Virus record (IMG/VR): IMGVR_UViG_2531839524_000004
Length of the DNA: 64,000 bases
Source of the DNA: a virus
Lineage: Duplodnaviria; Heunggongvirae; Uroviricota; Caudoviricetes
Strand: one strand, 5' to 3'
Positions 4,318 to 48,406 of this stretch are shown in pieces; the first letter of the stretch is position 1, and each line of letters opens with the position of its first letter. The position numbers were made by a program, and so were the translations under genes. The notes below the pieces were generated by a model. That model did not search any database, had not been told where the DNA came from, and worked only from the letters and a program-made list of their open reading frames with translations.

Positions 4318-4898
4318 TTCATGTGCAGCTTGGCGGACCTATGGCTAAACATTTTGGTCGCCACTGGCATCTAAAGGTGCGCAATACAAAACAGGCTCTG
4401 GATTTAATTGAAGCCAACAAGCCTGGGTTTAAAGCATGGATGAAGCGCAATATCAAAACCTATGACAGTTACCACATCCAGATCACCAATAAACAGGGCC
4501 ACAAGTGGTCTGTTGACGAAAGTGAATATCAGATGATGGGGCAGTCTGACAACATTGCCAAAATCCGCATTACACCTGTTCCGCGAGGAAGCGGTGGATC
4601 TGCTTTTGGGTGGTTTCAGACGGTAGTAGGGGCCGCTTTGTTGGTTGTATCGGCGGTAGTGATGCCTGCTTTAGCACCTCTCGGTTTGTCACTGATGATG
4701 GGCGGCATATCACAAATCATATCGCCGCAAGCCACTAACGAAAGTGTGAGACAGGCAGATAACTCGAACTCTTATTATTTCGACGGCCCTCAAAATACAG
4801 AAAACCAGGGCAACCCAGTACAACTTATCTATGGCGAGGAAATTCTGGTTGGCTCACAGGTTGTGAGTTCTTCAATCACGATTGACCAGCTAATGTAA
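4305..4898 (+). CDS. Tail assembly protein (lambda gpI-like)
   Basis: 197 aa with a hydrophobic C-terminal segment, between gpK-like and gpJ-like genes; GTG start overlapping the upstream gene. Confidence 0.55.
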   Translation: MSELVHVQLGGPMAKHFGRHWHLKVRNTKQALDLIEANKPGFKAWMKRNIKTYDSYHIQITNKQGHKWSVDESEYQMMGQSDNIAKIRITPVPRGSGGSAFGWFQTVVGAALLVVSAVVMPALAPLGLSLMMGGISQIISPQATNESVRQADNSNSYYFDGPQNTENQGNPVQLIYGEEILVGSQVVSSSITIDQLM

Positions 4899-4909
4899 AC
4901 AAGGATTTT

Positions 4910-7900
4910 TTGAACATGGAACAGTTCAAGAAGAAAAAGCTACCGCTGTTTATTGCCGGTGCGGGTGGTAAAAAAAGCAGCAAAAGCTCCAGTCGTACAC
5001 CGGTTGAAGCCGACGATACCGTAAATTCTCGTGCAATGGCCGCTATCCTCGATCTTCTTGGGGAAGGGGTAATTGGCGGCTTAGTAAATGGCGCAAGATC
5101 TATTTTTATCGACGATCTGCCGATTGTAAATGAAGACGGTTCCTCCAACTTCAGCGGAATCACATGGGATTTTCGCGACGGTTCACAAGACCAGACTCCA
5201 ATGTCTGGCTTTGATTTCGTTGAAACGCCTAAATCCGTCAATATCCAGTTAAAAAAAACACATTATGTAACGGTTTCAATCGATAACGATGAAGCTGATC
5301 GGGTTCGTGTCATCATGAAGTTTCCTTCTTTGCGAAGCATAGATAAAAAAACTGGTGACACGAACGGTACGACTGTTGAGTACAAGTTCCAGATAGCAAA
5401 TGGCGACTCAACATTTGTAGATGTGGTCGCGGAAGGGGAAAAAAGCGTTGGCATTAAGCTAACAGCAAAGAAGACCGGCGTTTATTACCGTAGCTATGAG
5501 CTGAAGCTGCCTAAGCCTGGACGCGCATACAAGGTTCGTGTAGTCCGTATTACCGATGATAACAGTAGCCAGTATCTCTATAACGATACATGGGTGGATT
5601 CAATCGGGGAAATTGTCGATACACCGATGAACTATCCAAACTCTGTTTTGGTTGGATTGAAGGTAAACTCTGAGCAATTCGGCAGCACCATGCCATCTCG
5701 CTCTTATCTGGTGCGTGGCCTAAAAATTCGAGTACCTTCAAACTATAACGAGTCCAGTAACACTTACGCTGGGGTATGGGATGGCACTTTTAAGCTGTTG
5801 TCTTCTTCGAACCCCGCGTGGATTCTCTTTGATTTGCTGACCAATGCTCGATATGGCCTTGGTCAGTATGTGTCGGAATCTATGATTGACCTTGGCCAGT
5901 TGTACCAGATTGGTCGATATTGTGACGAAGAGGTCGATGATGGCTTTGGTGGCAAAGAGAAACGCTTTGCAATCAATACGCAGATCACCAGTCGACAGGA
6001 CGCATACCGGCTAATTCAGGATATTGCTGGAGCATTCCGCGGCATGGTGTTTTGGGCTGGTGGGATGGTTAACATCATGCAGGATAGCCCATCAGATCCG
6101 GTAATGATGTTTACCAACTCTAACGTCAAAGATGGATTGTTTACCTATAAAGGTTCTGCGCGTAAAGATCGCCCATCCGTTGCGCTCGTAACCTACAACA
6201 ACAAGGAGGACGGTTATAAGCAAAACATCGAGTACGTTGAAGATCAGGACGCAATGCGCCGTTATGGTGAGCGTAAGACAGAAGTCGTAGCATTTGGCTG
6301 TACAAGCCGAGGGCAGGCTCACCGAGTTGGTTTATGGCTTTTATATACCGCCAGAATGGAGTCGGATGTAATTACATTTACTGCCGGCTTAGACGCGTCA
6401 TTTCTGATGCCTGGTGAAACCGTTCTGATTCAGAACAAATATCGCGCAGGCAAACGTAACTCAGGTCGAATTGTGGCGTTTACCAAAAACAGCGTCACAC
6501 TCGATGCGCCTGTGTCGTTAGCCAAAGGCGGCTGCTTTATTCGAATACTGAATCAGGAAGGCAAAATCGTTGAACGCGATGTTCTTGAAACTGGCGAAAA
6601 TATAACAAAAGTTACGTTTTCAAAAGCCCTGTCTTCGGCTGAAACGCCTGTTTTGAACGGCGTCTGGACTATTACAGAACCAGACCTCGAACCTATGCGC
6701 GTTCGCATCGTTAACATCGCGCAGGGGGAAACGCCGGGTAGCTTTGACATCACCGCTGTTGAGAACAATCCGTCTAAATATGAGGCGATCGACAATGGTG
6801 CAACGCTTATCCCGCAAAATACGACGGTATTGGACCCGACTTACTCCAAGCCGTCTAATTTGCAAATCACCGAAGGGACTTATCTCTCAAGCCCTGGCAA
6901 CCTGTCAGTAAAACTGACTGCAACATGGGAAGGGAAATCTCCAGAGTATTGGATCAGTTGGCGACGTTCTGATGAAAACAATGTATCGAACTGGCAATCG
7001 GCGCGTGTAACCGAAGAGCAATACGAAATCGTTAATGTTGCGGAGAATGGACGCTACGACTTCCAGCTGTATGCGGTTTCATTCAACGGTAAAAAAACAG
7101 AGATTATCAGTACCGTTTATCAGGTGCTGGGCACAATGACACCGCCAGATGCCCCAACGTCATTAACGGCCGTTGGAGACTATCGTAATGTGATACTGAA
7201 TTGGGTTAATCCAGATTCGGTAGACCTTGATCACATTAATGTTTACGCGTCCCAGACCAATAATCTGGATACGGCGAAACTGATCGCAGAGTCTGCAAGC
7301 ACCACCTTTACACATGCTGGTCTTGGGGATAGCGAAACGTGGTATTACTGGGTTCGAGCATCGAACAAGCGAGGTATGTTAAGTCCTCCGAACTCAAACT
7401 TGGGTACAGAGGCGACAACTCGCGATGTACTGTCGTTCCTGACTGGCAAAATTACATCTTCCGAGCTTGGTCAGGCTCTGCTTGAGGACATCAACAGCAA
7501 AGCCTCTCAAGAAGCCGTTGACGAGTTAAATGAGCATATCAACCAGAGCGTCGAATCTTTGGAGGGGGCGGTAAACGACGTTAAGGAAGATATAGCTGAA
7601 TTAGATAAGCAGTTCAGCGATAACCTCGCGGATTTTGAAATAAAATTCAACGAGCGTAGCGATGCTTTGGAGAACGCACAAACCGAGCTTAAAGGGGAGG
7701 TTTCGGCAACGATCGACAAGGTCAATGAAGCGTTTGAAAAAATTGATGCTACTGATGCTGCAATTGTTGAAATCGAAAATACAGTATCTGAACACGATAA
7801 AGCTCTCGCTAATACAGTCGAGGCAATAAAGGCTGCAAGAGATGAAGCGGCGGCTCTTATTGCTAAGGAAAGCGAGGCTCGTGTTGAAGGCGATGCTGCA

Positions 7901-9643
7901 AACGCTAAACAACTGGAAGTGTTGCAGTCAACGGTAGAGGAAAGCTCCGCTGCCGTTGAAGAAATGAAAAAGACGGTTGCAGAGGTCGATCGTGCAAGTG
8001 CAGAACTGACTACGAACATTGAGGCGTTAGCCAAAACAAATATTGACCTGGCTCTTCGTCAAGATGAAGACCAGCACAAGCAGATGGTCAATAACGCGAA
8101 GATCGCAACAACACAGAAAACCTTTGCTGATGATATGTCTGCAATGGCTACGAAGGTTGAAGAAATTCGCGTAGAAATTGGCGAAGACATTAAGGCCAGT
8201 ATTCTGGAAGAGTCCACCGCGCGTGCCGATGGCGATGAAGCGTTAGCAAAGCGTGTCACTCAGCTGCAATCTAAGTTTGAAGGAGATATCAGCGCGGCGA
8301 TTAGTACAGAACAGGAGGCTCGTACATCTGCCGATGAAGCTTTGACGAAACAAATAACTCAGCTTGAGTCGAAAGTAAGCAACGATATTGTCGCAGCCAT
8401 TAAGGAAGAGCAAGAAGCCCGAGCAACGGAAGATTCGGCTCTGGCAAGCCAGATCACCCAACTTCAGGCAAAAGTTGATGATGATATTTCTGCTGCAATA
8501 CGCAGTGAGCAGGAGGCTCGTGCGAGCGGAGACTCTGCGTTAGCTAAACAAATAAACCAGCTTCAAGCAAAGGTTGACGGTGATATATCCGCCGCCATCA
8601 CTCAGGAGCAGGAGGCCAGAGCAAGTGCTGACGAGGCGCTCTCACGAGAAATTAACAGCCTGCGGGCGCAGACCGGAACTGACATTGCCGCAGCCGTTGC
8701 TGTAGAGACAAAGGCAAGGACTGACGCTGATAGTGCATTGTCCAGCCAGATTACATCTCTTACAGCAAAAGCTAATGATCTCGAGGCGTCTCTTGCCAAA
8801 GAAACAACGGCTCGTGCAGATGGGGATACCGCTTTAACAAAAGAGGTTTCAAGTTTAAAAGCACAGACTGCGAAAGATATTAGTGCGGCCGTTGCAGTGG
8901 AAACGCAGGCTCGAACTGATGCTGACTCGGCGTTGTCATCTCAGATCACCAAGCTGACCTCTCAATACAAAGAGGATATTAAAGCGGCTGTGGCAACCGA
9001 AACGAAAACGCGTACAGAGCAAGATGCGGCATTGGCGACCCAAATCACAAACTTAGAGTCTCAAACAGCAGCCAACATTTCTGCGGCGGTCACAACTGAA
9101 ACGACAGCGAGAACGCAGGCAGATAATGCTCTAAGTGGGCGAATCGATACTCTGAAAGCAGAGGTGGATGGAAATACCGCGACAATTCAACAGCAGGCAA
9201 CAGCTATTGCTGATACCAACAAAAAAGTGTCAACCGCGTGGACGTTGAAAATGGAGACTTCAACGAGCGGAGGGCAGAAGTATGTTGCCGGTATTGCGCT
9301 TGGTATTGACACCACTGGGCTATCTCAGTTTTTGGTTCAGGCGGACAGGTTTGGTTTGGTCAACTCTGTCAACGGGAAGATCACCACGCCATTTGTTATC
9401 GAAAACAGTATTGCCTATATGAATGGTGCTTATATCAAGGATGGCACAATCACCAATGCAAAGGTAGGCGATCTGCAATCTACCAATTTTGTTAGCGGTA
9501 GATCTGGATGGCGATTCGGTAAAAATGGAACGCTTGAAATAAACGGTAATAGCGGCGGCAATGGGCGATTGGTCATTAATGGTCAGCGGATTGACGTTTA
9601 TGACGATAACAACGTCCTACGAGTAAGAATTGGCCGTCTGTGA
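4910..9643 (+). CDS. Tail tip / central fibre host-specificity protein (lambda gpJ-like) with an inserted coiled-coil repeat array
   Basis: 1577 aa following the K/I-like genes; large N-terminal region typical of gpJ-like proteins; C-terminal half holds tandem 33-aa repeats. Confidence 0.8.
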   Translation: MNMEQFKKKKLPLFIAGAGGKKSSKSSSRTPVEADDTVNSRAMAAILDLLGEGVIGGLVNGARSIFIDDLPIVNEDGSSNFSGITWDFRDGSQDQTPMSGFDFVETPKSVNIQLKKTHYVTVSIDNDEADRVRVIMKFPSLRSIDKKTGDTNGTTVEYKFQIANGDSTFVDVVAEGEKSVGIKLTAKKTGVYYRSYELKLPKPGRAYKVRVVRITDDNSSQYLYNDTWVDSIGEIVDTPMNYPNSVLVGLKVNSEQFGSTMPSRSYLVRGLKIRVPSNYNESSNTYAGVWDGTFKLLSSSNPAWILFDLLTNARYGLGQYVSESMIDLGQLYQIGRYCDEEVDDGFGGKEKRFAINTQITSRQDAYRLIQDIAGAFRGMVFWAGGMVNIMQDSPSDPVMMFTNSNVKDGLFTYKGSARKDRPSVALVTYNNKEDGYKQNIEYVEDQDAMRRYGERKTEVVAFGCTSRGQAHRVGLWLLYTARMESDVITFTAGLDASFLMPGETVLIQNKYRAGKRNSGRIVAFTKNSVTLDAPVSLAKGGCFIRILNQEGKIVERDVLETGENITKVTFSKALSSAETPVLNGVWTITEPDLEPMRVRIVNIAQGETPGSFDITAVENNPSKYEAIDNGATLIPQNTTVLDPTYSKPSNLQITEGTYLSSPGNLSVKLTATWEGKSPEYWISWRRSDENNVSNWQSARVTEEQYEIVNVAENGRYDFQLYAVSFNGKKTEIISTVYQVLGTMTPPDAPTSLTAVGDYRNVILNWVNPDSVDLDHINVYASQTNNLDTAKLIAESASTTFTHAGLGDSETWYYWVRASNKRGMLSPPNSNLGTEATTRDVLSFLTGKITSSELGQALLEDINSKASQEAVDELNEHINQSVESLEGAVNDVKEDIAELDKQFSDNLADFEIKFNERSDALENAQTELKGEVSATIDKVNEAFEKIDATDAAIVEIENTVSEHDKALANTVEAIKAARDEAAALIAKESEARVEGDAANAKQLEVLQSTVEESSAAVEEMKKTVAEVDRASAELTTNIEALAKTNIDLALRQDEDQHKQMVNNAKIATTQKTFADDMSAMATKVEEIRVEIGEDIKASILEESTARADGDEALAKRVTQLQSKFEGDISAAISTEQEARTSADEALTKQITQLESKVSNDIVAAIKEEQEARATEDSALASQITQLQAKVDDDISAAIRSEQEARASGDSALAKQINQLQAKVDGDISAAITQEQEARASADEALSREINSLRAQTGTDIAAAVAVETKARTDADSALSSQITSLTAKANDLEASLAKETTARADGDTALTKEVSSLKAQTAKDISAAVAVETQARTDADSALSSQITKLTSQYKEDIKAAVATETKTRTEQDAALATQITNLESQTAANISAAVTTETTARTQADNALSGRIDTLKAEVDGNTATIQQQATAIADTNKKVSTAWTLKMETSTSGGQKYVAGIALGIDTTGLSQFLVQADRFGLVNSVNGKITTPFVIENSIAYMNGAYIKDGTITNAKVGDLQSTNFVSGRSGWRFGKNGTLEINGNSGGNGRLVINGQRIDVYDDNNVLRVRIGRL
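8186..9174 (+). repeat. Ten tandem 99-bp (33-aa) repeats inside the gpJ-like gene
   Basis: Repeat units such as 'DISAAISTEQEARTSADEALTKQITQLESKVSN' and 'DIVAAIKEEQEARATEDSALASQITQLQAKVDD' recur in-frame. Confidence 0.75.
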
Positions 9644-9736
9644 TGGTGGAAAAAAAATTTTATATCGGTAAGAATAGGTAAGTACTTACTTAATGGCGGG
9701 CAAGGATAGCCCGCCAAATCAAGGAGCATATTCAAC

Positions 9737-12700
9737 ATGTGGTACAGGGAAGGTACTATCACATTTACACAGGGTAGCAATACTCTGGTTGGGGCAGGGA
9801 CAGCCTGGAACGTAACAGCTAATGGGGTGTTGCCTGGGATGATCGTCATTGGCCCCGACAACAAGCTGTATGAGATCAAGCGCGTAACCAGTGATACGAA
9901 CATTGTTCTCTCAGAACCTTATACCGGCGAAACTCAGTCTGAAGTTCCGTGCCGAATCATTACGACCTATGAAGGCGACTTAACACAGTTTAGCGCGCGC
10001 TTTACTGCACTAATGTCGCGTATGTCGGCTGATTCCAAGTCCATGCGCAGTTGGTTGACTGCTCTGGATGAGGTGACAATCGAGCGTGAAGACGGTACAG
10101 AAGTGACCGTTAAGCCGCTAATGCAGATCGTCAACGAGCACAACGAAAACGTTGAGTGGTATAAAAATAACACTGACGCGATTGATGCTGCTGGCGACAA
10201 AGCTCGTGAGGCGGCGGCCAGTGCTGCCGCAGCAGCAGAAAGCGCCAATACCGCTGGAGAAAAAGCCTCTCAAGCGTCTCAAAGTGCATCCGCTGCGGCA
10301 TCCTCACAAAGTGCTGCAAGTGCGAGCGCAACTGCTGCGAAAAAATCTGAAACGAACGCACAAGCCGCAAAAGAAGCGGCAGCAGAATCAGCATCTTTAG
10401 CGTCGGCCAAAGCATCGGAGGCAGCAACATCTGCGTCCAGTGCCTCTGCATCTAAGGATGCAGCCAAAGCATCAGAGACTAACGCTTCATCGAGCGCAAA
10501 CGCGGCAGCATCATCGGCAACAGAAGCTGCAAATTCGTCTAAGGCAGCAAAAACGTCAGAGGCAAACGCAAAAGCATCTGAAACGGCAGCCGAACAGAGT
10601 GCATCGTCTGCAAACAGTTCGAAATCTGCGGCAGAAGCGTCAGCAAGCGCAGCCTCAGCAAGTGCGGATAGTGCTTCATCAAGTGCAACAGCGGCAGGAA
10701 AATCTGCGGATAGCGCATTGTCATCAGCGACAACAGCTACCACAAAAGCGACAGAGGCGACGAGTCAGGCTACAGCTGCTAAAAATTCAGCATCTGCAGC
10801 AAAAACCTCTGAAACAAATGCAAAGACTTCAGAAGACAATGCTGCTTCCTCTAAGGCGGCAGCTGCTGAATCTGCAAGTTCTGCGTCTGCATCAGCCTCC
10901 TCAGCATCCGCTTCAAAAGATGAGGCGACCAAGCAGGCATCAGAAGCGAAGGGCAGTGCTTCAACGGCATCCACGAAAGCAACAGAGGCGGCAGGCAGTG
11001 CGACGGCTGCATCTCAGAGCAAAACTGCTGCTGAATCCGCTGCGACCCGTGCGGAAGCTGCTGCTGATCGTGCTGAAGAGATTGCCGGTGCAGTTGCGAT
11101 GGAAGACGCAAGCCTTACAACTAAAGGTGTTGTGAAACTTAGCAGTGCTGTCGATAGCACCAGTGAATCGCTGGCCGCAACGCCAAAAGCAGTTAAAGCA
11201 GCCAATGACAATGCGAATAGCAGGGTGCCATCTAACCGAAAAATTAACGGAAAAGCACTGACTGCGGATATAACATTAACGCCGAAAGATATTGGTACTT
11301 TAAATTCAGTAACGATGTCTTTCTCTGGCGGGGCTGGGTGGTTCAAACTGGCTACGGTTACCATGCCACAAGCGAGTTCCATCGTTTACATCACATTGAT
11401 TGGTGGTGCTGGATATAATGTTAACTCCCCTATGCAGGCTGGTATATCTGAACTTGTTCTTCGTGCGGGAAATGGAAATCCAAAAGGTCTTACTGGTGCG
11501 TTATGGCGAAGGACATCGGTTGGATTTACTAATTTTGCATGGGTGAATACATCCGGCGATACATATGATATTTATGTTGAGATTGGCAATTATGCGACGA
11601 GTGTAAATGTCCACTGGGATTGTACTGCAAATGCGTCAGTTTCTATTTATACATCGCCAACATATTCAGCGAGTAAGCCTGCCAGCGTTACCGATGGTGT
11701 TGTTTATACGATGTATAGCTCACATCAGAAACCTACGCCATCAGATATTGGAGCACTGCCAACAACCGGAGGAACAGTTTCTGGTCCGTTGTCTGTTACA
11801 GGCGGATTAACTGGTTCATTGAATGGTAATGCAAGTACAGCAACGAAATTACAGACGACAAGAACTATCGGCGGCGGGAGCTTTGATGGTACTGCAAATA
11901 TTAATTTGCCAGGTGTTAATACGACTGGTAATCAGAATACAACAGGTAATGCGGCTACTGCTACGAAGTTGCAGACTGCGCGTACTATTAATGGGGTGTC
12001 GTTTGACGGTTCGGCAAATATTTCCTTGTCACCAGCAAATATAGGTTGCCCGGCATCTCCTACTGGTTGGTTAACTACAGGAAGTAATGGCGGAGCAATA
12101 ACAACAGCCCAGTTAGTGACGTTATTGCAAAATAATGGAGCCTTTAACACAAAGGCATGGATTGCTCGATGTGCGTGGGCCTATGCCAATAGCGCAACCA
12201 TACCAAATAGTGAAACTGGTTGTGGCGTTATTCCATTGGCAGGAGCTGTTATAGAAGTATTTAATAACGGTAGTAGTTCAAATAATTATACGATCCGCAT
12301 AACAACGGCCACAACGACAAGTGTTTCCGGTGCTCTCACTAATGCGGAGTTTATCTATGTATTTAATGGCACAGATTATTCTCCAGGATGGCGAAGAGTA
12401 TATAACACGAAAAACAAACCAACTGCATCTGACGTTGGTGCATTACCTCTTACCGGTGGTACATTATCTGGAGGTTTGACATCTTCTGGTGAGATCGTTT
12501 CAAAATATGCAAATGGTTTCCGCATTGCTTACGGTAGCTTTGGGTTCTTTATCCGTAATGACGGCGGCAGCACATATTTCATGCTAACAGCATCAGGAGA
12601 TACGTTAGGTTCATGGAACGGCTTGCGACCGATTACAATTAATAATACTAGCGGGGTTGTGTCTATTGGTAATGGACTAAATGTTACTGGTGGCGTAAAT

Positions 12701-13848: not shown

Positions 13849-14172
13849 ATGTCGAACGAGATGGCGGGCGTTACAACAGAGCAAGTTGAGCGTATTGCCG
13901 CGATCGTTGCTCGGGAGGTTGTTGGCAAATTAGGCAAAGAGCTACGTGAAGAAATTGGCCAGGAGGTCAATGATCAGCTGAAAACCTACTTTGGTGATAT
14001 GACCCCGGCGCAACATAGTATTCAACACTCCAACCTGGACAAGCTCCTTAACCGGTTAGATTCCATCTCCAGTGGGTTCTTTGGCGGCATTGTTTCTAAA
14101 ATAACGTCGTTCATTATTACTGCACTGCTTTTGGGGTTAGCCGCGTATGGCGTAAAAAATGGACTGCAATAA
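13849..14172 (+). CDS. Holin-like small membrane protein (putative)
   Basis: 107 aa with a single C-terminal TM segment 'ITSFIITALLLGLAAYGV'; immediately precedes the putative endolysin with overlapping ends. Topology is atypical for a holin. Confidence 0.35.
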   Translation: MSNEMAGVTTEQVERIAAIVAREVVGKLGKELREEIGQEVNDQLKTYFGDMTPAQHSIQHSNLDKLLNRLDSISSGFFGGIVSKITSFIITALLLGLAAYGVKNGLQ

Positions 14173-14185
14173 CAGGAGATCAAGG

Positions 14186-14878
14186 ATGAAGACTCCGAGA
14201 GGCATTCGTAATAATAACCCCGGTAATCTTGATAAAGGATCACCGTGGCAAGGTCTGGTTGCGAATCCAGATGAACCGCGCTTTTGCACGTTTAAAGACC
14301 CTGTTTGGGGGATTCGTGCGTTGGCGGTGACTCTAATTACCTACCACGACAAACGTCGCGCAAAAGACGGCTCAAGTATCGATACCATTCGTGAAGTTAT
14401 TGAACGTTGGGCACCGCCGAATGAAAACAACACTGACGCCTACATTAATGAGGTGTCTAAAGCCGTTGGTGTAACCGCAGACATGATCATCGATCTGCAT
14501 GATTACGACATTCTTCGACCTTTGGTTGAGGCAATCATTCGCCATGAGAATGGGCGAGGTCCGCTAAAAACGCTGAACACCTGGTATGCGGCAGAAGTTA
14601 TTGAGGAAGGTCTGCGTCGAGCTGGCGTCGTTAAGCCGGTGAAAACCGTGAAGGCTGTTCCTGTAACTAAAGAAACAGCAGGCGCAACTGTCACAGCAGG
14701 TATTGGTCTGGCGCAGCTGGCCGATGTTATGCCGCAGGTTTCCGCTGCTATGGATAAAGCACAAGGTCATATCTCTAGCGGGGATACAGTACGCATCATC
14801 TTCGGTATTGCCACTATTGTTGTGGCTGGATTTATCGCCTGGTCGCAGGTAAGAAGACACCAGAAAGGGATGGTCTAA
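14186..14878 (+). CDS. Putative endolysin / peptidoglycan hydrolase with C-terminal membrane segment
   Basis: 'GIRNNNPGNL' N-terminal motif, which I associate with phage cell-wall hydrolases; located between holin-like and spanin genes; ATG at 14186 is preceded by AGGAG. Confidence 0.5.
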   Translation: MKTPRGIRNNNPGNLDKGSPWQGLVANPDEPRFCTFKDPVWGIRALAVTLITYHDKRRAKDGSSIDTIREVIERWAPPNENNTDAYINEVSKAVGVTADMIIDLHDYDILRPLVEAIIRHENGRGPLKTLNTWYAAEVIEEGLRRAGVVKPVKTVKAVPVTKETAGATVTAGIGLAQLADVMPQVSAAMDKAQGHISSGDTVRIIFGIATIVVAGFIAWSQVRRHQKGMV

Positions 14879-14879
14879 T

Positions 14880-15131
14880 ATGCTAGGCAGCCTGATGACA
14901 AAGCTCAAAGTTGCTTTGATTACGCTGGCTGCCGTTCTTTTCGTTCTGGTCGGCGCTTACACGATGGGCGGAAATGCGGCGCGACGAGCAATGGAAGAGA
15001 AGGCAAAACAGGAAGACAGGAAACGACTTCAAAGCACAGTGGACGTCAAAAATGAAACACTTGATGAGTTACGGCGCAAGGATGCTTCTACTGTTCATCA
15101 TGAGTTGCACAATAAGTGGTTGCGTGATTAA
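14880..15131 (+). CDS. i-spanin (Rz-like)
   Basis: 83 aa with N-terminal TM 'LKVALITLAAVLFVLVGAYTMG' then charged coiled-coil-like region; directly after the endolysin. Confidence 0.5.
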   Translation: MLGSLMTKLKVALITLAAVLFVLVGAYTMGGNAARRAMEEKAKQEDRKRLQSTVDVKNETLDELRRKDASTVHHELHNKWLRD

Positions 15132-43600: not shown

Positions 43601-44674
43601 ATGGCAAAAGGAAAATCCGCACTGGCACTTGCTCTGAAAAAGAAAATCGGTAGCAACGACGAAATTCAGAAAGTAACTCATTGGATTGATACAGGCTTTC
43701 CACCGTTAAACAAAGCTATTTCTGGTCGTTACGATGGCGGCTTCCCATGTGGTCGTATCGTCGAAGGATTCGGTCCTCCAAGTGCAGGGAAAACGTTCCT
43801 TGCAACAGCAGCGATGATCTCCGCTCAAAAACAAGATGGTCTGGCGGTATTCCTCGATCATGAAAACAGTTTTGACGTTGGCCTGGCTGTAGCCAATGGC
43901 CTGAACGCAGATGAGGATGACGGTCAGTGGGTATACAAGCAGCCTGATACCTTCGAAGACTCTGTAGAGTTGATCGGCACAATTCTTAAATTGGTACGTG
44001 ATGAAGAGCTTATTCCTGAATCAGCACCTATCTGTATCGTGGCTGACTCACTTGCGTCTATGGTTCCGAACTCCAAAGCCGAGAAGTTCGAAAAGATGGC
44101 TGAAGGCACTGCCAAAGACAAAGATCAGCTAAACATGAACGACAATACGGCACTGGCTCGTGCGACAAGTGCGAACTTCCCTACTCTGGCTTTGTGGGCA
44201 CGCAAATACAACGCCTGCATCATCTTCTTGAATCAGGTTCGCACAAAAATCGGTGTAATGTTTGGCGACCCTACTACGTCGCCAGGTGGAGATTCACCGA
44301 AGTTCTACGCTTCTGTACGTATCCGTCTTGGTGCATCGGTGATGAAGGATGGTAAAGAGAAGATCGGCCAGGACGTAGGCGCAGAATGCATCAAAAACAA
44401 AGTTGCACCACCGTATGGCAAATGCACCTGGAAATTCTACTTCGATCCTACTCGTGGCCTCGACGTTATCGAATCGCTCGTCGAGTACATGCTGGAAGAA
44501 GGATACCTGCCAAAGAACGCCAGCGGGCGAGTTGAAATTGGTGACAAGAAATACACCAAATCGCAGATCGTCGAGATGTATCGGGAGAAGCCACTGGCTG
44601 AAATCATTGCGGCTTTGCAGGCAATCGACGACCGAAGAGCAAAAGACAACCCCACCGAGTCAGTAGAAGAGTAA
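43601..44674 (+). CDS. RecA/UvsX-family recombinase
   Basis: 'GRIVEGFGPPSAGKTFLA' closely parallels the RecA Walker A region; 'ICIVADSLASMVP' is Walker B-like. Confidence 0.75.
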   Translation: MAKGKSALALALKKKIGSNDEIQKVTHWIDTGFPPLNKAISGRYDGGFPCGRIVEGFGPPSAGKTFLATAAMISAQKQDGLAVFLDHENSFDVGLAVANGLNADEDDGQWVYKQPDTFEDSVELIGTILKLVRDEELIPESAPICIVADSLASMVPNSKAEKFEKMAEGTAKDKDQLNMNDNTALARATSANFPTLALWARKYNACIIFLNQVRTKIGVMFGDPTTSPGGDSPKFYASVRIRLGASVMKDGKEKIGQDVGAECIKNKVAPPYGKCTWKFYFDPTRGLDVIESLVEYMLEEGYLPKNASGRVEIGDKKYTKSQIVEMYREKPLAEIIAALQAIDDRRAKDNPTESVEE

Positions 44675-44766
44675 ACACAAGGCGTCCACAGGACGCCTTT
44701 TTTATCTCTTGAAAATATATAAGTACTTACTTATTATTTTCGCATAACAACCACATAGGAAAACAC

Positions 44767-44967
44767 ATGATCAAAATCTATCTATTGGCAGTAGCCACAG
44801 GCCTTTCAGTGGCTCTCATCTACGGTTTACTGGTTCCGTCGCTGATTTCTACCAAGAGTGATTTAGCCGTCATGTTTGGAGTTATCGTTGGTTTTGGTGC
44901 TCCTGTAATCGGTCTTATTGCTGGTCGTAAGTTTATCAACTCATTAATCAAAGCAAAGGGGAAATAA
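44767..44967 (+). CDS. Small two-TM membrane protein
   Basis: 66 aa, two hydrophobic segments; immediately upstream of the SPFH gene. Confidence 0.45.
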   Translation: MIKIYLLAVATGLSVALIYGLLVPSLISTKSDLAVMFGVIVGFGAPVIGLIAGRKFINSLIKAKGK

Positions 44968-44970
44968 GTA

Positions 44971-45801
44971 ATGAAGAAAGGTTTACTTGCAGTTGCTCTG
45001 GCGGCTATTTGCACAATGGGTCTTACTGGCTGTGATCGCGTGGAGCCTGGATACGTTGGCATCAAAGTAAACAAATTAGGTGAAGACAAAGGGATCGGTG
45101 AAGTGGTTGGCGTTGGTCGCCAATGGACAGGTCTTAACACCGAACTTTACGTATTCCCGACCTTCAAACAAATGAAGACCTACGACGAACCGTTCACATT
45201 CCAGATGAGTGACGGTACTGCTATTGGTCACAAAATTGGCGTTGCGTATCTGGTTAATCGTGACAAGGTAACGACGGTGTTCCAGACCTATCGCAAAGGC
45301 GTAGACGATATCACCGAATCAGATCTGCGTCAGAAAATTGCCGACTCTCTAAACCGTTTGGCCAGCCGTATGACCACTGACTCATTTATCGACGGTGGTA
45401 AGGCGCAATTGCTGGACAACGCACTGAAAGATATTCAGAAAGAGATGTCTCCGGTTGGTATTGAGGTACTGAGCCTGTCATGGGTTGGAAAGCCTGATTA
45501 CCCAAAAACCGTCATTGAATCTATCAACGCCAAAGTAACGGCTAACCAGCGTACTCTGCAACGTCAGCAGGAAGTTGAACAGCGTAAAGCTGAGGCGAAT
45601 ATGCTACGTGAACAGGCTAATGGTGAAGCTGATGCTATCCGTGCTCGTGCGCAAGCAGAAGCCGACGCCATTCGTCTGCGCGGTGAAGCTCTGCGTCAAA
45701 ACCCGAACGTTATGGAGCTGGAAGCCATCAATAAATGGAATGGCCAGTTACCGCAGTACATGACTCAAGGGGCTAACACTCCTTTCATTACAGTGAAATA
45801 A
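44971..45801 (+). CDS. SPFH/band-7 (stomatin/HflC-like) lipoprotein
   Basis: Signal peptide with lipobox 'LTGC'; SPFH-like core; C-terminal Ala/Glu/Arg/Gln-rich coiled coil 'EADAIRARAQAEADAIRLRGEA'. Confidence 0.7.
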   Translation: MKKGLLAVALAAICTMGLTGCDRVEPGYVGIKVNKLGEDKGIGEVVGVGRQWTGLNTELYVFPTFKQMKTYDEPFTFQMSDGTAIGHKIGVAYLVNRDKVTTVFQTYRKGVDDITESDLRQKIADSLNRLASRMTTDSFIDGGKAQLLDNALKDIQKEMSPVGIEVLSLSWVGKPDYPKTVIESINAKVTANQRTLQRQQEVEQRKAEANMLREQANGEADAIRARAQAEADAIRLRGEALRQNPNVMELEAINKWNGQLPQYMTQGANTPFITVK

Positions 45802-45896
45802 CTCTCATTAAGAAGATCAGGCGTCCAGTTGGACGCCGTTTTATTCTCGTTATTATCACACACAAGAAAACAATTTGTTAAAAGGTTAAGTTAATT

Positions 45897-46721
45897 ATGC
45901 CCAACCACATTACAAACGAAATCCGAGTCATAGGTGGTACAAATAAACAACGCTTAGATTTCATACGTGCCATAACTAACAAAAAAGGTCTAATTGACTT
46001 TAATACCATTTGCAGACGTCCGAAAAGTATAGAAATGGAAGAAAACAATCATATCAGGCGCATGGCCTCTGCAATGGCGGGCGAAACAGTTTACGACCAC
46101 ATGTTCGGTGAATTAAAGACTCCAGAACAGGTCGAATTAGCTATGCGTGAATCAGGAATGACACGCAAGGAAATTCGCAAAATCAAAGAGCAGGCTCTTA
46201 TGCGGCTTGAGAATTATCGTCGCTATGGCTATTACTCATGGTTTGACTGGTCGCGAGCTAATTGGGGAACAAAATGGAATGCCTACAACATCGAAATGCC
46301 CGTAAAACGTATCCCTACACGTATTAAGTACGGCCATAATTTCCGCCATACACACGTTCGAGCATATGCAAAACGAATCTATAAAAAACGTCTTGCAAGA
46401 CATGCCGCAACTGGTAGTGAGTTGGTGATTCGCTTTGAAACAGCCTGGTCTATGCCAAAACCAATTTATCAAGAGATGGCTAGAAAGTTCCCGCACCTTG
46501 AGTTTGTAATACGTTATGCAGACGAAGACTTCGGCAATAACTGCGGATTCATTTTACTTCGCAACGGCAAATGGGAATATGACTACATTGCACCGGCGAA
46601 TAACAAACAATCGTCAGAAGAAAAAATCAAATGGCGCAAGTTCGCCTTTGAGTTATGTTGTCCTGGTATCACTCCACAAGAATACGGTCTAAATGAAGAA
46701 TACGAATACGCCGGATATTAA
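45897..46721 (+). CDS. Hypothetical protein
   Basis: 274-aa ORF; Trp/Tyr-rich segment 'YSWFDWSRANWGTKWNAYN'; preceded by the AACAATTTGTT motif. Confidence 0.5.
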   Translation: MPNHITNEIRVIGGTNKQRLDFIRAITNKKGLIDFNTICRRPKSIEMEENNHIRRMASAMAGETVYDHMFGELKTPEQVELAMRESGMTRKEIRKIKEQALMRLENYRRYGYYSWFDWSRANWGTKWNAYNIEMPVKRIPTRIKYGHNFRHTHVRAYAKRIYKKRLARHAATGSELVIRFETAWSMPKPIYQEMARKFPHLEFVIRYADEDFGNNCGFILLRNGKWEYDYIAPANNKQSSEEKIKWRKFAFELCCPGITPQEYGLNEEYEYAGY

Positions 46722-46768
46722 AAAAAATTGTCATTTAGCTTTACGCATGAAGCATAGAGGTTAATAAG

Positions 46769-47509
46769 ATGAAAAGAAAAATTGAAGAACCAAAAACGAC
46801 CCTTAATAAACATGGGGAAAAAATTCAAACACATCCAGCGTTCGGTCTTGTGAAAACAAGCCGTGTTAGCACAACTGGCATTCGCCTATTTGATTCAGAA
46901 CTGGAACATAGAGACTATATTGAAATAGGCGTTTACGAGGCGGAACTGTCCTTAGACAATGAACGAACCCGCCCACAAAGAAGTTGCAATAGACGGCCTT
47001 TAGTTGAAATTAGACTTAGCCAGGCACAATGGGCTGCTATGGTTAGCAGTTTTGGAGTGGGCGAAGGTGTGCCATGCACTATTTCATATAAAACCATTGG
47101 AGACTCAATTAGAGTTCATGATATTGCCGAGCAAAAAAGTATTCGGCAAAAATTCAACGATCAAATAAAGGCCGCTACGAATAGTGAGATTGATCGACTT
47201 AATCAGCAAGTTTCAGAGCTAGGTGAACTTGTGAAAAAAGGAAGAGCTGGAAAACGTGACCTTGAAGAACTATATAGAAAACTAGCATCTGCTGTAGCTA
47301 ACCTTCCTGAAAATCTGTGCTTTGCTACCGAATTAATGCAGGAACAAATGGATGAAATTGTCTCATCTGGAAAGGCGGAGATTGAGGCGTATGTTGCGGG
47401 CACGGTTATGCGTAAAGGGTTAGCAGCATTAGGCACAGAATCATGCATTAACGATGATCCTACTGTCTCTATCACCAAAATGGAAAGCGGTAAAGAATTA
47501 CTGCCATAA
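46769..47509 (+). CDS. Hypothetical protein
   Basis: 246-aa ORF; no motif recognised. Confidence 0.5.
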   Translation: MKRKIEEPKTTLNKHGEKIQTHPAFGLVKTSRVSTTGIRLFDSELEHRDYIEIGVYEAELSLDNERTRPQRSCNRRPLVEIRLSQAQWAAMVSSFGVGEGVPCTISYKTIGDSIRVHDIAEQKSIRQKFNDQIKAATNSEIDRLNQQVSELGELVKKGRAGKRDLEELYRKLASAVANLPENLCFATELMQEQMDEIVSSGKAEIEAYVAGTVMRKGLAALGTESCINDDPTVSITKMESGKELLP

Positions 47510-47529
47510 ATGCATCTGAGGTACTGACA

Positions 47530-47919
47530 ATGTTTTTAATTCAACCTGGGTTCGGTTTAAAGATAAAAAAAGGGCATATGTTTGGTGAGCGAGATTCCAA
47601 ACGAAAAATTCTGTCTATTCGATTACCATTTATCACCATTCATTGGTTAAACAGAGAGTCAACCGATTATTGGTATAAATGCGCAAGAGCAGCATTTAAC
47701 GACCCTGACTGGTTTGTAGAAAATCACCACGCGGTTCGTCAGGCAAAAAGAAAGGCTAATACGACATATATGAAGGCATATCAGGATGCCTGGGAAGAAC
47801 ATCGTGGCCGATACCAAAAAAACATTGAAAAACTTGAATCAGAAAATATGGACCTAAGAAGAAAACTCGGTGAAGCACGTCGAGACATCGAAGCATATAA
47901 ACGTCTTGTATCGGAGTGA
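47530..47919 (+). CDS. Hypothetical protein
   Basis: 129-aa ORF with basic/coiled-coil C-terminus. Confidence 0.4.
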   Translation: MFLIQPGFGLKIKKGHMFGERDSKRKILSIRLPFITIHWLNRESTDYWYKCARAAFNDPDWFVENHHAVRQAKRKANTTYMKAYQDAWEEHRGRYQKNIEKLESENMDLRRKLGEARRDIEAYKRLVSE

Positions 47920-47980
47920 ATATATCTTTGCTTTATTTTTTCAAAGGTGATTATTTTCCTATTTATAAGGAGAAGTAAAC

Positions 47981-48406
47981 ATGGCAGCAATTAAGAAACT
48001 CTACGATGCCGCAAACGCGGCTCTGGATGTTATTGATGATGAAGTATCAAAAGGCTTTCCTGAACCTGATTGGGCGCATCAGCTACGAAACGCTATCGCA
48101 GAAATGACCCCATCAGATCCAACCCCCGACGAGACAAACTGGCAGCGATTCATCCGTATGTACGCTCAGGAAATAGGTCCAACGCCAACGGCAGAGCAGG
48201 CAATGCTGCTGAAATACTTCAAAGAGGCGGGAGAGGATTTACCAATTGATGACTCAGCATATTGGTTCCACTGCGCATGGCGTAAGTATGACGTGATATT
48301 CACACAAGGCATGGGAAGCAAAGATATGGTTGTGTGGCATCTACTCCATATAGACACAGCCGTTGACAGAGTTATTGAACAGTTTTTCCCTAACCAAGAA
48401 GATTGA
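47981..48406 (+). CDS. Hypothetical protein
   Basis: 141-aa ORF. Confidence 0.45.
   Translation: MAAIKKLYDAANAALDVIDDEVSKGFPEPDWAHQLRNAIAEMTPSDPTPDETNWQRFIRMYAQEIGPTPTAEQAMLLKYFKEAGEDLPIDDSAYWFHCAWRKYDVIFTQGMGSKDMVVWHLLHIDTAVDRVIEQFFPNQED

What the first reader, a model, noticed from the sequence alone, without database searches (positions are those of the whole stretch)
44767..45801. Phage-encoded SPFH/band-7 lipoprotein with an upstream small membrane protein
A lipoprotein (lipobox 'LTGC') with an SPFH-type core and C-terminal coiled coil is preceded by a 66-aa two-TM protein, recalling bacterial NfeD-SPFH operon pairs. SPFH proteins (HflK/C) modulate FtsH protease; a phage copy could tune FtsH-dependent turnover of regulators, relevant to a lysis versus plasmid-state decision, or organise membrane microdomains.
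Basis: partly seen in the sequence, partly recalled or inferred. Interest (0 to 1): 0.5.

Follow-up and report, generated by a model that had tools for sequence, protein, structure and literature searches.

The report
Phage SPFH lipoprotein with membrane partner
This phage-plasmid carries a two-gene unit, a tiny two-helix membrane protein plus a lipid-anchored SPFH (stomatin/prohibitin/HflK-like) protein, that recurs in hundreds of temperate and strictly lytic phages and in some bacterial chromosomes; it probably builds a cage on the outer face of the inner membrane, and what that cage does is unknown.

Summary
44767-44967 encodes a 66-aa two-TM hairpin. 44971-45801 encodes a 276-aa lipoprotein (lipobox LTGC, Cys21, Asp+2) with a Band_7/SPFH domain (Pfam E=2.6e-30). 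The AF2 model matches HflK/C, prohibitin and erlin best.

The pair forms its own transcription unit: terminator, promoter carrying a conserved 16-bp palindrome, two closely spaced ORFs, terminator. The element is an SSU5-like phage-plasmid.

The partner is not NfeD, since it has no OB-fold domain. It is still a genuine co-evolving partner. It lies next to the SPFH gene in 68/80 bacterial-genome loci and 74/80 distant viral loci, and it is fused to the SPFH protein, at either end, in many distant relatives.

The FtsH/lysogeny-decision reading is untested and is weakened by three results:
- The family occurs in 377 phage records, many of them obligately lytic.
- It occurs in housekeeping chromosomal contexts in Dyella and Leptospira.
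- It fails the HflK and HflC family cut-offs.

Published RNA-seq of the near-identical Cyrano module shows it silent in LB-grown lysogens and raised inside macrophages.

Most likely it is a periplasm-facing SPFH cage, with the hairpin as its membrane part, that acts on the inner membrane during lytic development. I rate it a new variant of a known kind, of moderate interest.

The parts
44679..44699 (+). Intrinsic-terminator-like hairpin ending the upstream recA-like gene. It marks the left boundary of the unit.
   Evidence: 9-bp stem with 6 GC pairs, followed by TTTTTAT. The hairpin position is kept in related phage-plasmids while its sequence varies.
44709..44737 (+). Sigma-70-type promoter-like site, TTGAAA-17 nt-TATTAT.
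   Evidence: 10 of 12 matches. The core CTTGAAAATATATAAGTACTTACTTAT(C/T)AT is conserved across diverged SSU5-like elements while the flanks vary. In Cyrano the pair is transcribed independently of its neighbours.
44719..44734 (.). Perfect 16-bp palindrome ATAAGTA-CT-TACTTAT in the promoter spacer. It is a candidate operator or a phage-specific promoter element.
   Evidence: 10 matches in the window at up to 2 mismatches, against 0.16 expected. All are intergenic and upstream of + strand lytic genes, including minor tail, tail fibre, SSB, SbcD, RNR and ThyX genes. The binding factor is unknown.
44767..44967 (+). 66-aa two-TM hairpin partner protein. Predicted topology is N-in/C-in, with a periplasmic loop STKSD and a conserved motif LLVPSLIS-x-KSD at the outer end of TM1.
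   Evidence: hydropathy; phrog_1130; family alignment. A partner HMM finds it next to the SPFH gene in 68/80 genome loci and 74/80 distant viral loci. It is fused to the SPFH protein in distant relatives. It gave no Pfam or NfeD hit.
44971..45033 (+). Lipoprotein signal peptide (residues 1-20) and lipobox L-T-G-C, with Cys21 as the acylated residue. Asp22 at position +2 is the canonical inner-membrane retention signal in E. coli.
   Evidence: Read directly from the sequence. Cys21 is invariant across 52 family members, fusions included. Asp22 is conserved in at least 90% of the enterobacterial set. The sorting rule comes from established knowledge and was not tested here.
45037..45597 (+). SPFH/Band 7 domain (residues 23-209).
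   Evidence: Pfam PF01145, E=2.6e-30. AF2 model. Foldseek hits to HflK/C, prohibitin, erlin and stomatin.
45505..45699 (+). Long Ala/Glu/Arg-rich helix (residues 179-243), equivalent to the wall-forming coiled-coil helix of SPFH cages.
   Evidence: helix H179-243. Profile match to the HflK and prohibitin-2 helix region. Weak Pfam Flotillin hit.
45700..45798 (+). C-terminal tail carrying the family's most conserved motif (NP-x-V-x-x-LEAI-x-KW-x-G-x-LP). It is a candidate oligomerisation or cap segment.
   Evidence: W256 and G258 are invariant and P261 nearly so across 52 diverse members. pLDDT is low in the monomer model. The role in a cap is an inference by analogy with solved SPFH cages.
45820..45837 (+). 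Intrinsic-terminator-like hairpin closing the unit. Its stem has the same sequence (GGCGTCC/GGACGCC) as the upstream terminator.
   Evidence: repeats D2 and I6.

Best explanation
The two genes encode one inner-membrane complex.

The 276-aa protein is exported, lipid-modified on Cys21 and kept in the inner membrane by Asp+2. Its SPFH domain therefore faces the periplasm, the same side as HflK/C. Like other SPFH proteins it is expected to oligomerise, through the 65-residue helix and the conserved C-terminal tail, into a dome over a patch of membrane.

The 66-aa hairpin is made from the same transcript, with its stop codon 3 nt before the next ATG. It supplies the transmembrane part that a lipoprotein lacks. 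Contact is probably through the conserved outer end of TM1 and the loop.

The module is an old cellular one that phages have picked up repeatedly. In this phage-plasmid it has its own promoter, which carries a palindrome shared with lytic genes. It is off in the resting plasmid state and is made during lytic development or stress. Its job is most likely to condition the host inner membrane during productive infection, by fencing off or modulating a host membrane component or by preserving membrane integrity until programmed lysis. [quoted passage not shown]

Shown here: the ORFs, the SPFH fold, the lipobox, partner conservation and fusions, distribution, and the transcription-unit anatomy. Taken from published data: silence in LB-grown lysogens. 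Inferred: topology, cage formation, the partner's role, timing of expression and physiological role.
For: - SPFH identity: Pfam E=2.6e-30. AF2 plus Foldseek give probability 1.0 to HflK/C, prohibitin and erlin cages.
- Lipid anchor: the lipobox Cys is invariant in 52 diverse relatives and Asp+2 is nearly invariant in enterobacterial copies.
- Partner adjacency: the partner lies next to the SPFH gene in 68/80 genome loci and in 74/80 distant viral loci (71 upstream, 2 downstream, 1 fused).
- Partner in named phages: it is present in P2-like P88, lambdoid phiP27 and the virulent N4-like Erwinia phage S6.
- Fusions: about 20 of 150 family representatives are N-terminal fusions that keep an internal lipobox, and one carries the hairpin at the C-terminus.
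- Consistent topology: in the fusions the hairpin's K/R-rich tail becomes the n-region of the signal peptide.
- Partner evolution: the partner evolves much faster than the SPFH protein (59% against 94.5% identity), but the TM1 end and loop stay fixed.
- Transcription unit: terminators, promoter and a conserved palindrome.
- Expression: in Cyrano, whose module is 92% identical, the pair is absent from the moron list and near the floor in LB. It rises to log2 7.3-7.7 at 6 h in macrophages while the flanking genes stay near 4.
- Lytic phages: the family is in 377 phage records, including many obligately lytic phages.
- Cellular origin: housekeeping chromosomal contexts in Dyella and Leptospira.
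Against: - No experiment or multimer model shows that this protein oligomerises or binds the hairpin. The AF2 model is a monomer of moderate confidence (pLDDT 77, tail below 50).
- Asp+2 retention is a rule from E. coli lipoprotein sorting and was not tested here.
- Other genes that carry the palindrome are not co-induced with the pair in the Cyrano macrophage data, so the regulatory reading is uncertain.
- In more distant phages (Bruynoghevirus U47, phiEa104, CcrSwift) the upstream small ORF does not match the partner profile, so the partnership is not universal.
- The physiological role is a judgement from distribution. No client protein has been identified.
Confidence: 0.55

Rival explanations
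1. HflK/C mimic. The periplasmic SPFH lipoprotein binds or cages host FtsH and changes turnover of FtsH substrates such as CII-like regulators, biasing the choice between lytic growth and the plasmid state.
For: - It has the same predicted side of the membrane as HflK/C.
- HflC/HflK are the best Foldseek, PDB-sequence and NCBIfam matches.
- It sits in early operons in P88 and in lambdoid prophages, running towards int, where lambda keeps cIII.
- Most solved SPFH assemblies are linked to membrane proteases (established knowledge).
Against: - It scores far below the HflK and HflC equivalog cut-offs (30 against 134 bits; 19 against 159).
- Structural alignments to HflK/C show only 16-18% identity.
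- It is a single gene, not a K/C pair, and is lipid-anchored rather than TM-anchored.
- The family is common in obligately lytic phages, which make no lysogeny decision. It is also a chromosomal gene pair in Dyella and Leptospira.
- The literature already notes this objection.
- FtsH modulation for other ends, such as stabilising sigma-32 or LpxC, is not excluded.
Confidence: 0.15
2. Superinfection exclusion or anti-phage defence. The periplasmic lipoprotein complex blocks DNA entry of other phages at the inner membrane, or acts as an abortive-infection module in which the hairpin is a caged membrane-damaging effector.
For: - It is a small autonomous unit bounded by terminators, in a variable region of the phage-plasmid.
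- Membrane lipoproteins and small inner-membrane proteins are typical exclusion factors (established knowledge: T5 Llp, TP-J34 Ltp, T4 Imm/Sp, HK97 gp15).
- The hairpin has a holin-like topology.
Against: - Neither protein hit any PADLOC model at E<=0.1.
- The pair is silent in LB-grown Cyrano lysogens, where a prophage exclusion gene would be expected to be on.
- It is present as a conserved housekeeping-context gene pair in Dyella and Leptospira.
- Exclusion during lytic growth, as with T4 Imm/Sp, remains possible.
Confidence: 0.12
3. Host-interaction or lysogenic-conversion factor. The lipoprotein is made by the lysogen under host-associated stress and helps envelope stress tolerance, or it acts as a TLR2-stimulating lipoprotein, as reported for a prophage SPFH protein of Pasteurella multocida.
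For: - Cyrano genes 56/57 rise selectively at 6 h inside macrophages.
- Pmorf0222, a prophage HflK/C-like protein, is reported as a virulence factor acting through TLR1/2 (PMC9872710).
- E. coli HflKC is reported to contribute to stress tolerance (title of PMC10434171).
Against: - The macrophage rise coincides with a rise in capsid and tail transcripts, so it may reflect partial induction.
- Presence in environmental virulent phages of Caulobacter, Erwinia and Prevotella argues against a virulence-specific role.
- I did not test whether Pmorf0222 is homologous to this subfamily.
Confidence: 0.08
4. Lysis-timing device. The 66-aa protein is a class II holin or antiholin-like protein and the SPFH cage controls when it triggers.
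For: It has two TM segments in N-in/C-in orientation and a charged C-tail, like pinholins. One Klebsiella phage record labels the locus 'RIIB lysis inhibitor'.
Against: - The window has its own lysis cassette (holin-position ORF, endolysin, Rz-like spanin) at 13849-15131, 30 kb away.
- The pair is never seen next to an endolysin in the loci examined.
- The pair occurs in non-phage chromosomal contexts.
Confidence: 0.07

Closest known systems
HflK/HflC (E. coli FtsH-modulating SPFH cage)
   Same: SPFH core plus long helix, and a predicted periplasmic orientation on the inner membrane. It is the best structural and sequence match among solved structures and among NCBIfam models.
   Different: A single gene rather than a K/C pair. 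It has a lipid anchor instead of an N-terminal TM helix. It scores far below the equivalog cut-offs, and structural alignments show 16-18% identity. It has a dedicated two-TM partner. No link to FtsH is shown.
NfeD-SPFH operons (for example QmcA-YbbJ, YqiK-YqiJ, Pyrococcus PH1510/PH1511)
   Same: An SPFH gene is co-transcribed with an adjacent membrane-protein partner that co-occurs with it across taxa. By analogy, the partner probably contributes transmembrane helices to the complex.
   Different: The partner is only 66 aa and lacks the NfeD OB-fold domain (no Pfam hit). The SPFH domain is predicted to face the periplasm, whereas in QmcA it faces the cytoplasm. The anchor is a lipobox. The QmcA-YbbJ structure ranks well below HflK/C in Foldseek (rank 40).
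Prohibitin and erlin complexes (eukaryotic SPFH cages on the non-cytosolic face)
   Same: They rank among the top fold matches. The C-terminal helix and NP-x-x-x-L motif region align with prohibitin-2. They lie on the exoplasmic side of the membrane.
   Different: They are eukaryotic hetero-oligomers with TM anchors and have no small hairpin partner.
Annotated phage 'band 7 / SPFH / stomatin-like lipoproteins' (PHROG 200), for example Cyrano CYRAN_57, P88 gp12, phiP27 L05, Erwinia phage S6 gp045, CcrSwift gp177
   Same: This is the same family, at 27-100% identity. The module in the window is 92% identical at the DNA level to that of Cyrano.
   Different: None in kind: this is a further member. 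In those records the partner gene is unannotated or labelled only 'membrane protein', and the function is stated to be unclear.

Membership tests
SPFH / Band 7 superfamily (PF01145) | Match to the Band_7 profile above Pfam's gathering score | tested here: met
   106.2 bits against a cut-off of 23.6, E=2.6e-30, covering residues 23-209.
SPFH / Band 7 superfamily (PF01145) | Alpha/beta SPFH fold followed by a long coiled-coil-type helix | tested here: met
   AF2 model with strands 21-95, helices 97-162 and a helix at 179-243. Foldseek probability 1.0 to HflK/C, prohibitin, erlin, stomatin and flotillin.
SPFH / Band 7 superfamily (PF01145) | Assembly into a large ring or cage on a membrane | not testable with these tools
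   Only monomer prediction is available. The conserved but low-pLDDT C-terminal tail is compatible with this.
HflK / HflC (FtsH modulators) | Score above the NCBIfam equivalog cut-offs TIGR01932 and TIGR01933 | tested here: not met
   HflC 30.2 bits against 134.4; HflK 18.7 bits against 159.4.
HflK / HflC (FtsH modulators) | Two paralogous SPFH genes (K and C) in one operon, each with an N-terminal TM anchor | tested here: not met
   There is one SPFH gene with a lipoprotein signal peptide, and the neighbour is a 66-aa hairpin.
HflK / HflC (FtsH modulators) | Physical association with FtsH | not testable with these tools
   No interaction data exist, and no FtsH gene is linked in any locus examined.
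NfeD-SPFH operon | Partner carries the NfeD C-terminal OB-fold domain (PF01957) | tested here: not met
   The 66-aa protein gave 0 Pfam families at E<=0.1. After two TM segments there is no room for an OB fold.
NfeD-SPFH operon | Membrane partner encoded next to the SPFH gene and conserved with it | tested here: met
   Adjacent in 68/80 genome loci and 74/80 distant viral loci, with natural fusions as well.
Bacterial lipoprotein (Lgt/LspA substrate), inner-membrane retained | Signal peptide ending in the lipobox [LVI][ASTVI][GAS]C, with Asp at +2 for Lol avoidance | tested here: met
   The sequence reads MKKGLLAVALAAICTMGLTGC-D. The Cys is invariant and the Asp is conserved in at least 90% of sequences. 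Actual acylation and sorting cannot be tested here.
Known anti-phage defence systems (PADLOC-DB v2) | Match to any PADLOC protein model | tested here: not met
   Both proteins gave 0 families at E<=0.1.
Class II holin / pinholin (small protein) | Two TM segments with a charged C-tail, encoded in a lysis cassette next to an endolysin | tested here: not met
   The topology fits. However, the lysis cassette is at 13849-15131 and the pair is never next to an endolysin.

The most novel reading that the evidence does not exclude
The pair is a minimal, self-contained 'nanocage' system: a lipid-anchored SPFH dome plus a two-helix transmembrane palisade. In some lineages it is made as one polyprotein that signal peptidase II would cut at an internal lipobox. 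Phages of many Gram-negative hosts, virulent and temperate, would deploy it early to wall off a patch of inner membrane. Possible purposes are to neutralise a host membrane protease or a membrane-targeting abortive-infection effector, or to protect the proton-motive force until lysis. That would make it a widespread and so far unrecognised host-takeover device.
Probability: 0.15. Interest if true: 0.75.

Novelty: new variant of a known kind. Interest (0 to 1): 0.45.

Why it matters
SPFH cages (HflK/C, prohibitin, stomatin, flotillin, erlin) have recently been solved, yet their physiological logic is still debated. Here a compact version has three distinguishing features: a lipid anchor, a 66-aa hairpin partner in place of NfeD, and occasional fusion of the two.

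It sits in about 7% of complete E. coli genomes and in hundreds of phages, from Stx-converting prophages to crAss-like and Lak phages. No function is assigned to it.

A two-gene system carried by a phage is easy to delete and to express. It would therefore be a convenient model for what an SPFH cage does to a bacterial inner membrane. The client it encloses could reveal a general step of phage takeover in Gram-negative hosts.

If it turned out to be only a membrane-stabilising accessory, the finding would remain a useful annotation. It would show that the unnamed small ORF belongs with the SPFH gene, and that the lysogeny-decision reading copied between genome papers is unlikely to be general.

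Tried and rejected
- PADLOC scan of the pair and two downstream ORFs. It gave no hit for the pair and only a non-significant SduA hit (E=0.017) for ORF 45897-46721.
- NCBIfam scan. Only sub-threshold HflC, HflK and FloT hits.
- Five literature searches for a tested function of phage SPFH lipoproteins. They returned annotation-level mentions only, plus one virulence study of a Pasteurella prophage SPFH protein whose relation to this subfamily I did not test.
- The search for related loci with the 52-sequence alignment. It failed because the alignment was too diverse. I repeated it with 10 sequences.
- Search for a third conserved neighbour gene. Clustering the neighbours of 80 genome loci and 80 distant viral loci found none shared across lineages. 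Only lineage-specific synteny appeared.
- Holin reading of the small protein. Rejected, because the lysis cassette lies elsewhere.
- Reading the unit as a constitutive 'moron'. Rejected using the Cyrano RNA-seq.
- An apparent exception in Shigella and E. coli chromosomes, where the partner lies 800 bp from the SPFH gene. The intervening ~770 bp appears to be an insertion sequence, IS1-like by my reading of its ORFs.
- I did not use the second structure job. Only window proteins or hits from the search for homologous proteins can be submitted, and no multimer prediction is offered.
Full report
**Observation**

ORF 44767-44967 (+) encodes 66 aa. It has two hydrophobic segments (about residues 3-27 and 33-53), a five-residue loop (STKSD) and a C-tail with five K/R residues. 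By the positive-inside rule this gives an N-in/C-in hairpin.

ORF 44971-45801 (+) encodes 276 aa and begins MKKGLLAVALAAICTMGLTGC-D. That is a textbook lipoprotein signal peptide with lipobox LTGC. Cys21 is followed by Asp, which in E. coli is the classical signal for retention in the inner membrane. This last point is established knowledge and was not tested here.

Pfam gives Band_7/SPFH at E=2.6e-30, 106 bits against a cut-off of 23.6. PHROGs places the two proteins in phrog_1130 ('membrane protein') and phrog_200 ('lipoprotein').

An AF2 model built on 29 homologues has mean pLDDT 77. It shows the alpha/beta SPFH core and a 65-residue helix at residues 179-243. Foldseek against the PDB returns HflC/HflK, prohibitin and erlin first (E about 1e-13 to 1e-12), then stomatin, flotillin, major vault protein and QmcA-YbbJ.

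**Genomic setting**

The window belongs to an SSU5-like phage-plasmid. It is 99.7% identical to Escherichia phage CMS-2020a over the unit and 92% identical to Cyrano of E. coli LF82. Upstream lie SSB, exonuclease and RecA genes. Downstream is a region that differs between relatives, and in Cyrano that region leads to repA.

The unit is bounded by two intrinsic-terminator-like hairpins, at 44679-44699 and 45820-45837, which share the same stem sequence. It has a promoter-like site, TTGAAA-17-TATTAT, at 44709-44737. The stop codon of the small ORF lies 3 nt before the ATG of the lipoprotein gene. The two ORFs are in the same reading frame, separated only by TAA GTA.

The promoter spacer holds a perfect 16-bp palindrome, ATAAGTA-CT-TACTTAT. 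This motif occurs 10 times in the window at up to 2 mismatches, against 0.16 expected. Every copy is intergenic and upstream of a + strand gene. Those identified are minor tail, tail fibre, a porphyrin/cobalamin gene, SSB, SbcD, ribonucleotide reductase and ThyX. The promoter-plus-palindrome core is conserved across diverged SSU5-like elements while its flanks drift. I read it as a scattered operator or a phage-specific promoter element. The factor that binds it is unknown.

**Expression evidence from the literature**

[quoted passage not shown] CYRAN_56 and CYRAN_57, which are this pair, are not on that list (PMC9928086).

The supplementary table gives log2(fpkm+5) values:

| Gene | LB overnight | 6 h inside macrophages |
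|---|---|---|
| CYRAN_56 (hairpin) | 2.32 / 2.32 (the floor) | 7.61 / 7.70 |
| CYRAN_57 (SPFH) | 4.30 / 3.02 | 7.25 / 7.42 |
| CYRAN_55 (RecA, upstream) | 3.56 / 3.12 | about 4.05 |
| CYRAN_58 (downstream) | 2.69 / 2.32 | about 4.1 |

The pair therefore has its own conditional promoter and is not a constitutive lysogenic-conversion gene. Capsid and tail transcripts also rise in the macrophage sample. The rise could be partial lytic induction or a stress response, and I cannot separate the two. Other genes that carry the palindrome, such as SSB, RNR and SbcD, do not rise in parallel. That tempers the operator reading.

**The small protein is a real partner, but it is not NfeD**

It has no Pfam hit at E<=0.1 and, at 66 aa, no room for the NfeD OB-fold. 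All its close homologues are unnamed 'hypothetical proteins' with no recorded domain.

The pairing itself is strongly conserved:
- A small two-TM ORF precedes the SPFH gene in P2-like phage P88, where it sits in the early operon between cox and the replication gene.
- The same holds in the lambdoid Stx phage phiP27. There the ORF is unannotated, overlaps the SPFH start, and runs towards xis and int.
- It also holds in a further prophage class.
- A profile built from these partners and from fusion proteins finds the partner beside the SPFH gene in 68 of 80 bacterial-genome loci spanning several phyla. It finds it in 74 of 80 distant viral loci: 71 upstream, 2 downstream and 1 fused.
- It also matches gp044 of the virulent N4-like Erwinia phage S6 (E=1e-16) and gp11 of P88 (E=5e-14). 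Neither of these was used to build the profile.
- An apparent exception in Shigella and E. coli chromosomes is a ~770-bp insertion between the two genes, IS1-like by my reading of its ORFs.

Fusions give the strongest support. Among 150 family representatives at 50% clustering, about 20 carry the hairpin fused to the N-terminus while keeping an internal lipobox. One (P0130) carries the hairpin at the C-terminus. The lipobox Cys is invariant across 52 diverse members, fusions included.

In the fusions, the hairpin's basic tail becomes the n-region of the signal peptide. That agrees with the topology predicted independently for the stand-alone protein.

Between SSU5-like subgroups the partner is 59% identical while the SPFH protein is 94.5% identical. 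The outer end of TM1 and the loop (YGLLVPSLIS-x-KSD) nevertheless stay fixed. This points to that surface, at the periplasmic leaflet, as the contact with the lipoprotein. That is an inference.

In some more distant phages (Bruynoghevirus U47, phiEa104, CcrSwift) the upstream small ORF does not match the profile.

**Distribution**

The SPFH subfamily has 195 representative clusters at E<=1e-30, and most are lipoproteins of about 280 aa.
- It is in 373 of 5426 complete E. coli genomes. Of the places found, 195 are on plasmids, which hold the full-length copies, and 204 are on chromosomes, where sampled copies are more diverged.
- It is in 377 of 50,697 phage records.
- Those phages include many that are obligately lytic: N4-like Schitoviridae, FelixO1-like Ounavirinae, 140-150-kb myophages of Klebsiella, Salmonella and Cronobacter, Bruynoghevirus, phiCbK-like Caulobacter phages, crAss-like phages, Lak megaphages and 340-kb jumbo phages.
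- In a set of 40-48-kb prophages it lies between a CI-like repressor and the integrase, on the same strand, as it does in phiP27.
- In Dyella and related Rhodanobacteraceae the pair sits in a conserved neighbourhood with BlaR1/BlaI-type genes and nrdAB. In Leptospira it sits next to succinate dehydrogenase genes. No phage genes are nearby in either case.
- No third gene is shared across lineages.

The module therefore appears to be cellular in origin and to have been taken up by phages repeatedly.

**Mechanism**

The best-supported reading is a single inner-membrane complex. It would consist of a periplasm-facing, lipid-anchored SPFH oligomer whose transmembrane part is supplied by the hairpin, made from one transcript.

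The C-terminal tail carries the family's most conserved residues (W256, G258, P261). It is disordered in the monomer model. That is what one expects of a segment that only folds in the cap of an assembled cage. This is an analogy with the solved cages, not a test.

On timing, three observations point to production during lytic development or stress rather than in the resting plasmid state: the conditional promoter, the silence in LB lysogens, and the early-operon position in P2-like and lambdoid phages.

On role, presence in many virulent phages argues for a function that serves productive infection in Gram-negative hosts generally. Candidates are fencing off or modulating a host inner-membrane component, or preserving membrane integrity until programmed lysis. 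I put 0.55 on this overall picture. The structural half is much firmer than the physiological half.

This idea is not new. Genome papers have made the same analogy, and one notes that the role is unclear because obligately lytic phages carry the gene (PMC8540360 and PMC4936722). A 2026 paper likewise calls the presence of the gene in a phage unexplained (PMC13239085).

In its favour:
- The orientation is the same as HflK/C.
- HflK/C are the best matches among solved structures and NCBIfam models.
- The gene occupies early-operon positions.

Against it:
- It fails the HflK and HflC equivalog cut-offs by a wide margin.
- It is a single lipid-anchored gene rather than a TM-anchored K/C pair.
- Structural alignments to HflK/C show only 16-18% identity.
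- Its distribution includes virulent phages and housekeeping chromosomal loci.

FtsH modulation for purposes other than a lysogeny decision is not excluded. I give the specific hypothesis 0.15.

**Other rivals**

Superinfection exclusion or defence (0.12) lacks any PADLOC match and conflicts with silence in lysogens. Exclusion during lytic growth remains possible.

A host-interaction or stress role (0.08) draws on the macrophage data and on a Pasteurella prophage SPFH virulence factor. It does not fit the environmental virulent phages.

A holin or lysis-timing role (0.07) is disfavoured because the window's lysis cassette lies at 13849-15131 and the pair is never next to an endolysin.

**Comparison with known systems and novelty**

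The protein is a member of the SPFH superfamily, with its defining features met. It is not a member of the HflK/HflC families, and the operon is not an NfeD-SPFH operon, because the defining features of both were tested and not met.

It works most like an NfeD-SPFH or HflK/C assembly. It differs in having a lipid anchor, a periplasmic orientation, a minimal hairpin partner and occasional fusion of the two.

Phage SPFH or 'band 7' lipoproteins are already annotated in many genomes, so the gene itself is known. Within the literature I could search, I did not find these points described: the conserved hairpin partner, the fusions, the cellular counterparts, and the breadth across virulent phages. 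I rate it a new variant of a known kind, with interest 0.45.

Noticed in passing
window 2755, 9674/9678, 26978, 34556, 41195, 44719, 52263, 56947, 61663: The 16-bp palindrome ATAAGTA-NN-TACTTAT recurs 10 times at up to 2 mismatches, against 0.16 expected. Every copy is intergenic and upstream of a + strand gene; those identified are minor tail, tail fibre, a porphyrin/cobalamin gene, SSB, the SPFH unit, SbcD, RNR and ThyX. It looks like a scattered operator or a phage-specific promoter element, reminiscent of P1 C1 operators. The binding factor is unknown.
   Followed up: partly
window 44679-44699 and 45820-45837: The two terminator hairpins flanking the unit share the stem GGCGTCC/GGACGCC and an 18-nt stretch that is 83% alike (GGACGCCTTTTTTATCTC and GGACGCCGTTTTATTCTC). 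They could be cassette boundaries or simply a common terminator type of this phage.
   Followed up: no
window 44965-44973: The two ORFs are in the same reading frame, separated only by TAA GTA. A single nonsense-to-sense change would produce the kind of hairpin-SPFH fusion seen in distant relatives such as P0125, P0135 and P0136.
   Followed up: partly
L001 (Cyrano) 5169-6203; PMC9928086 S1 Table: The Cyrano copy of the pair (CYRAN_56/57) is at or near background in LB. It rises to log2 7.3-7.7 at 6 h inside macrophages while the flanking RecA and CYRAN_58 stay near 4. Capsid and tail transcripts and CYRAN_60-62 also rise. Whether this is a stress response or partial induction is unresolved.
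   Followed up: partly
window 43601-44674 versus L001 2736-5075: The RecA-like gene is 357 aa here but is annotated as 780 aa in Cyrano. That suggests an insertion of about 1.3 kb (an intein or a homing element?) in the Cyrano copy.
   Followed up: no
window 45897-48406: The genes downstream of the unit differ from those at the same position in Cyrano, so this is a variable accessory region. They are a 274-aa protein with an Api92-like DUF1281_C ferredoxin-like domain, a 246-aa coiled-coil-like protein in phrog_6452, and a 129-aa protein in phrog_1511.
   Followed up: no
L101-L139 (Dyella and related) around 2900-12100; L147-L158 (Leptospira): In Rhodanobacteraceae the pair is a conserved chromosomal gene pair. 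It is flanked by a divergent BlaI-type repressor and BlaR1-type M56 membrane peptidase and by nrdAB, and in some loci a hemerythrin-domain gene lies directly downstream. In Leptospira it lies beside succinate dehydrogenase genes.
   Followed up: partly
L088 and L089, 5234-6000: In a Shigella flexneri and an E. coli chromosome, a ~770-bp element that looks like IS1 (identified by eye from its ORFs) separates the hairpin gene from the SPFH gene and alters the hairpin's C-terminus.
   Followed up: yes
L087 (Yersinia pestis NCTC5923 contig, 108 kb): A copy of the pair 94% identical at the protein level sits on a 108-kb Y. pestis contig, the size of an SSU5-like phage-plasmid.
   Followed up: no
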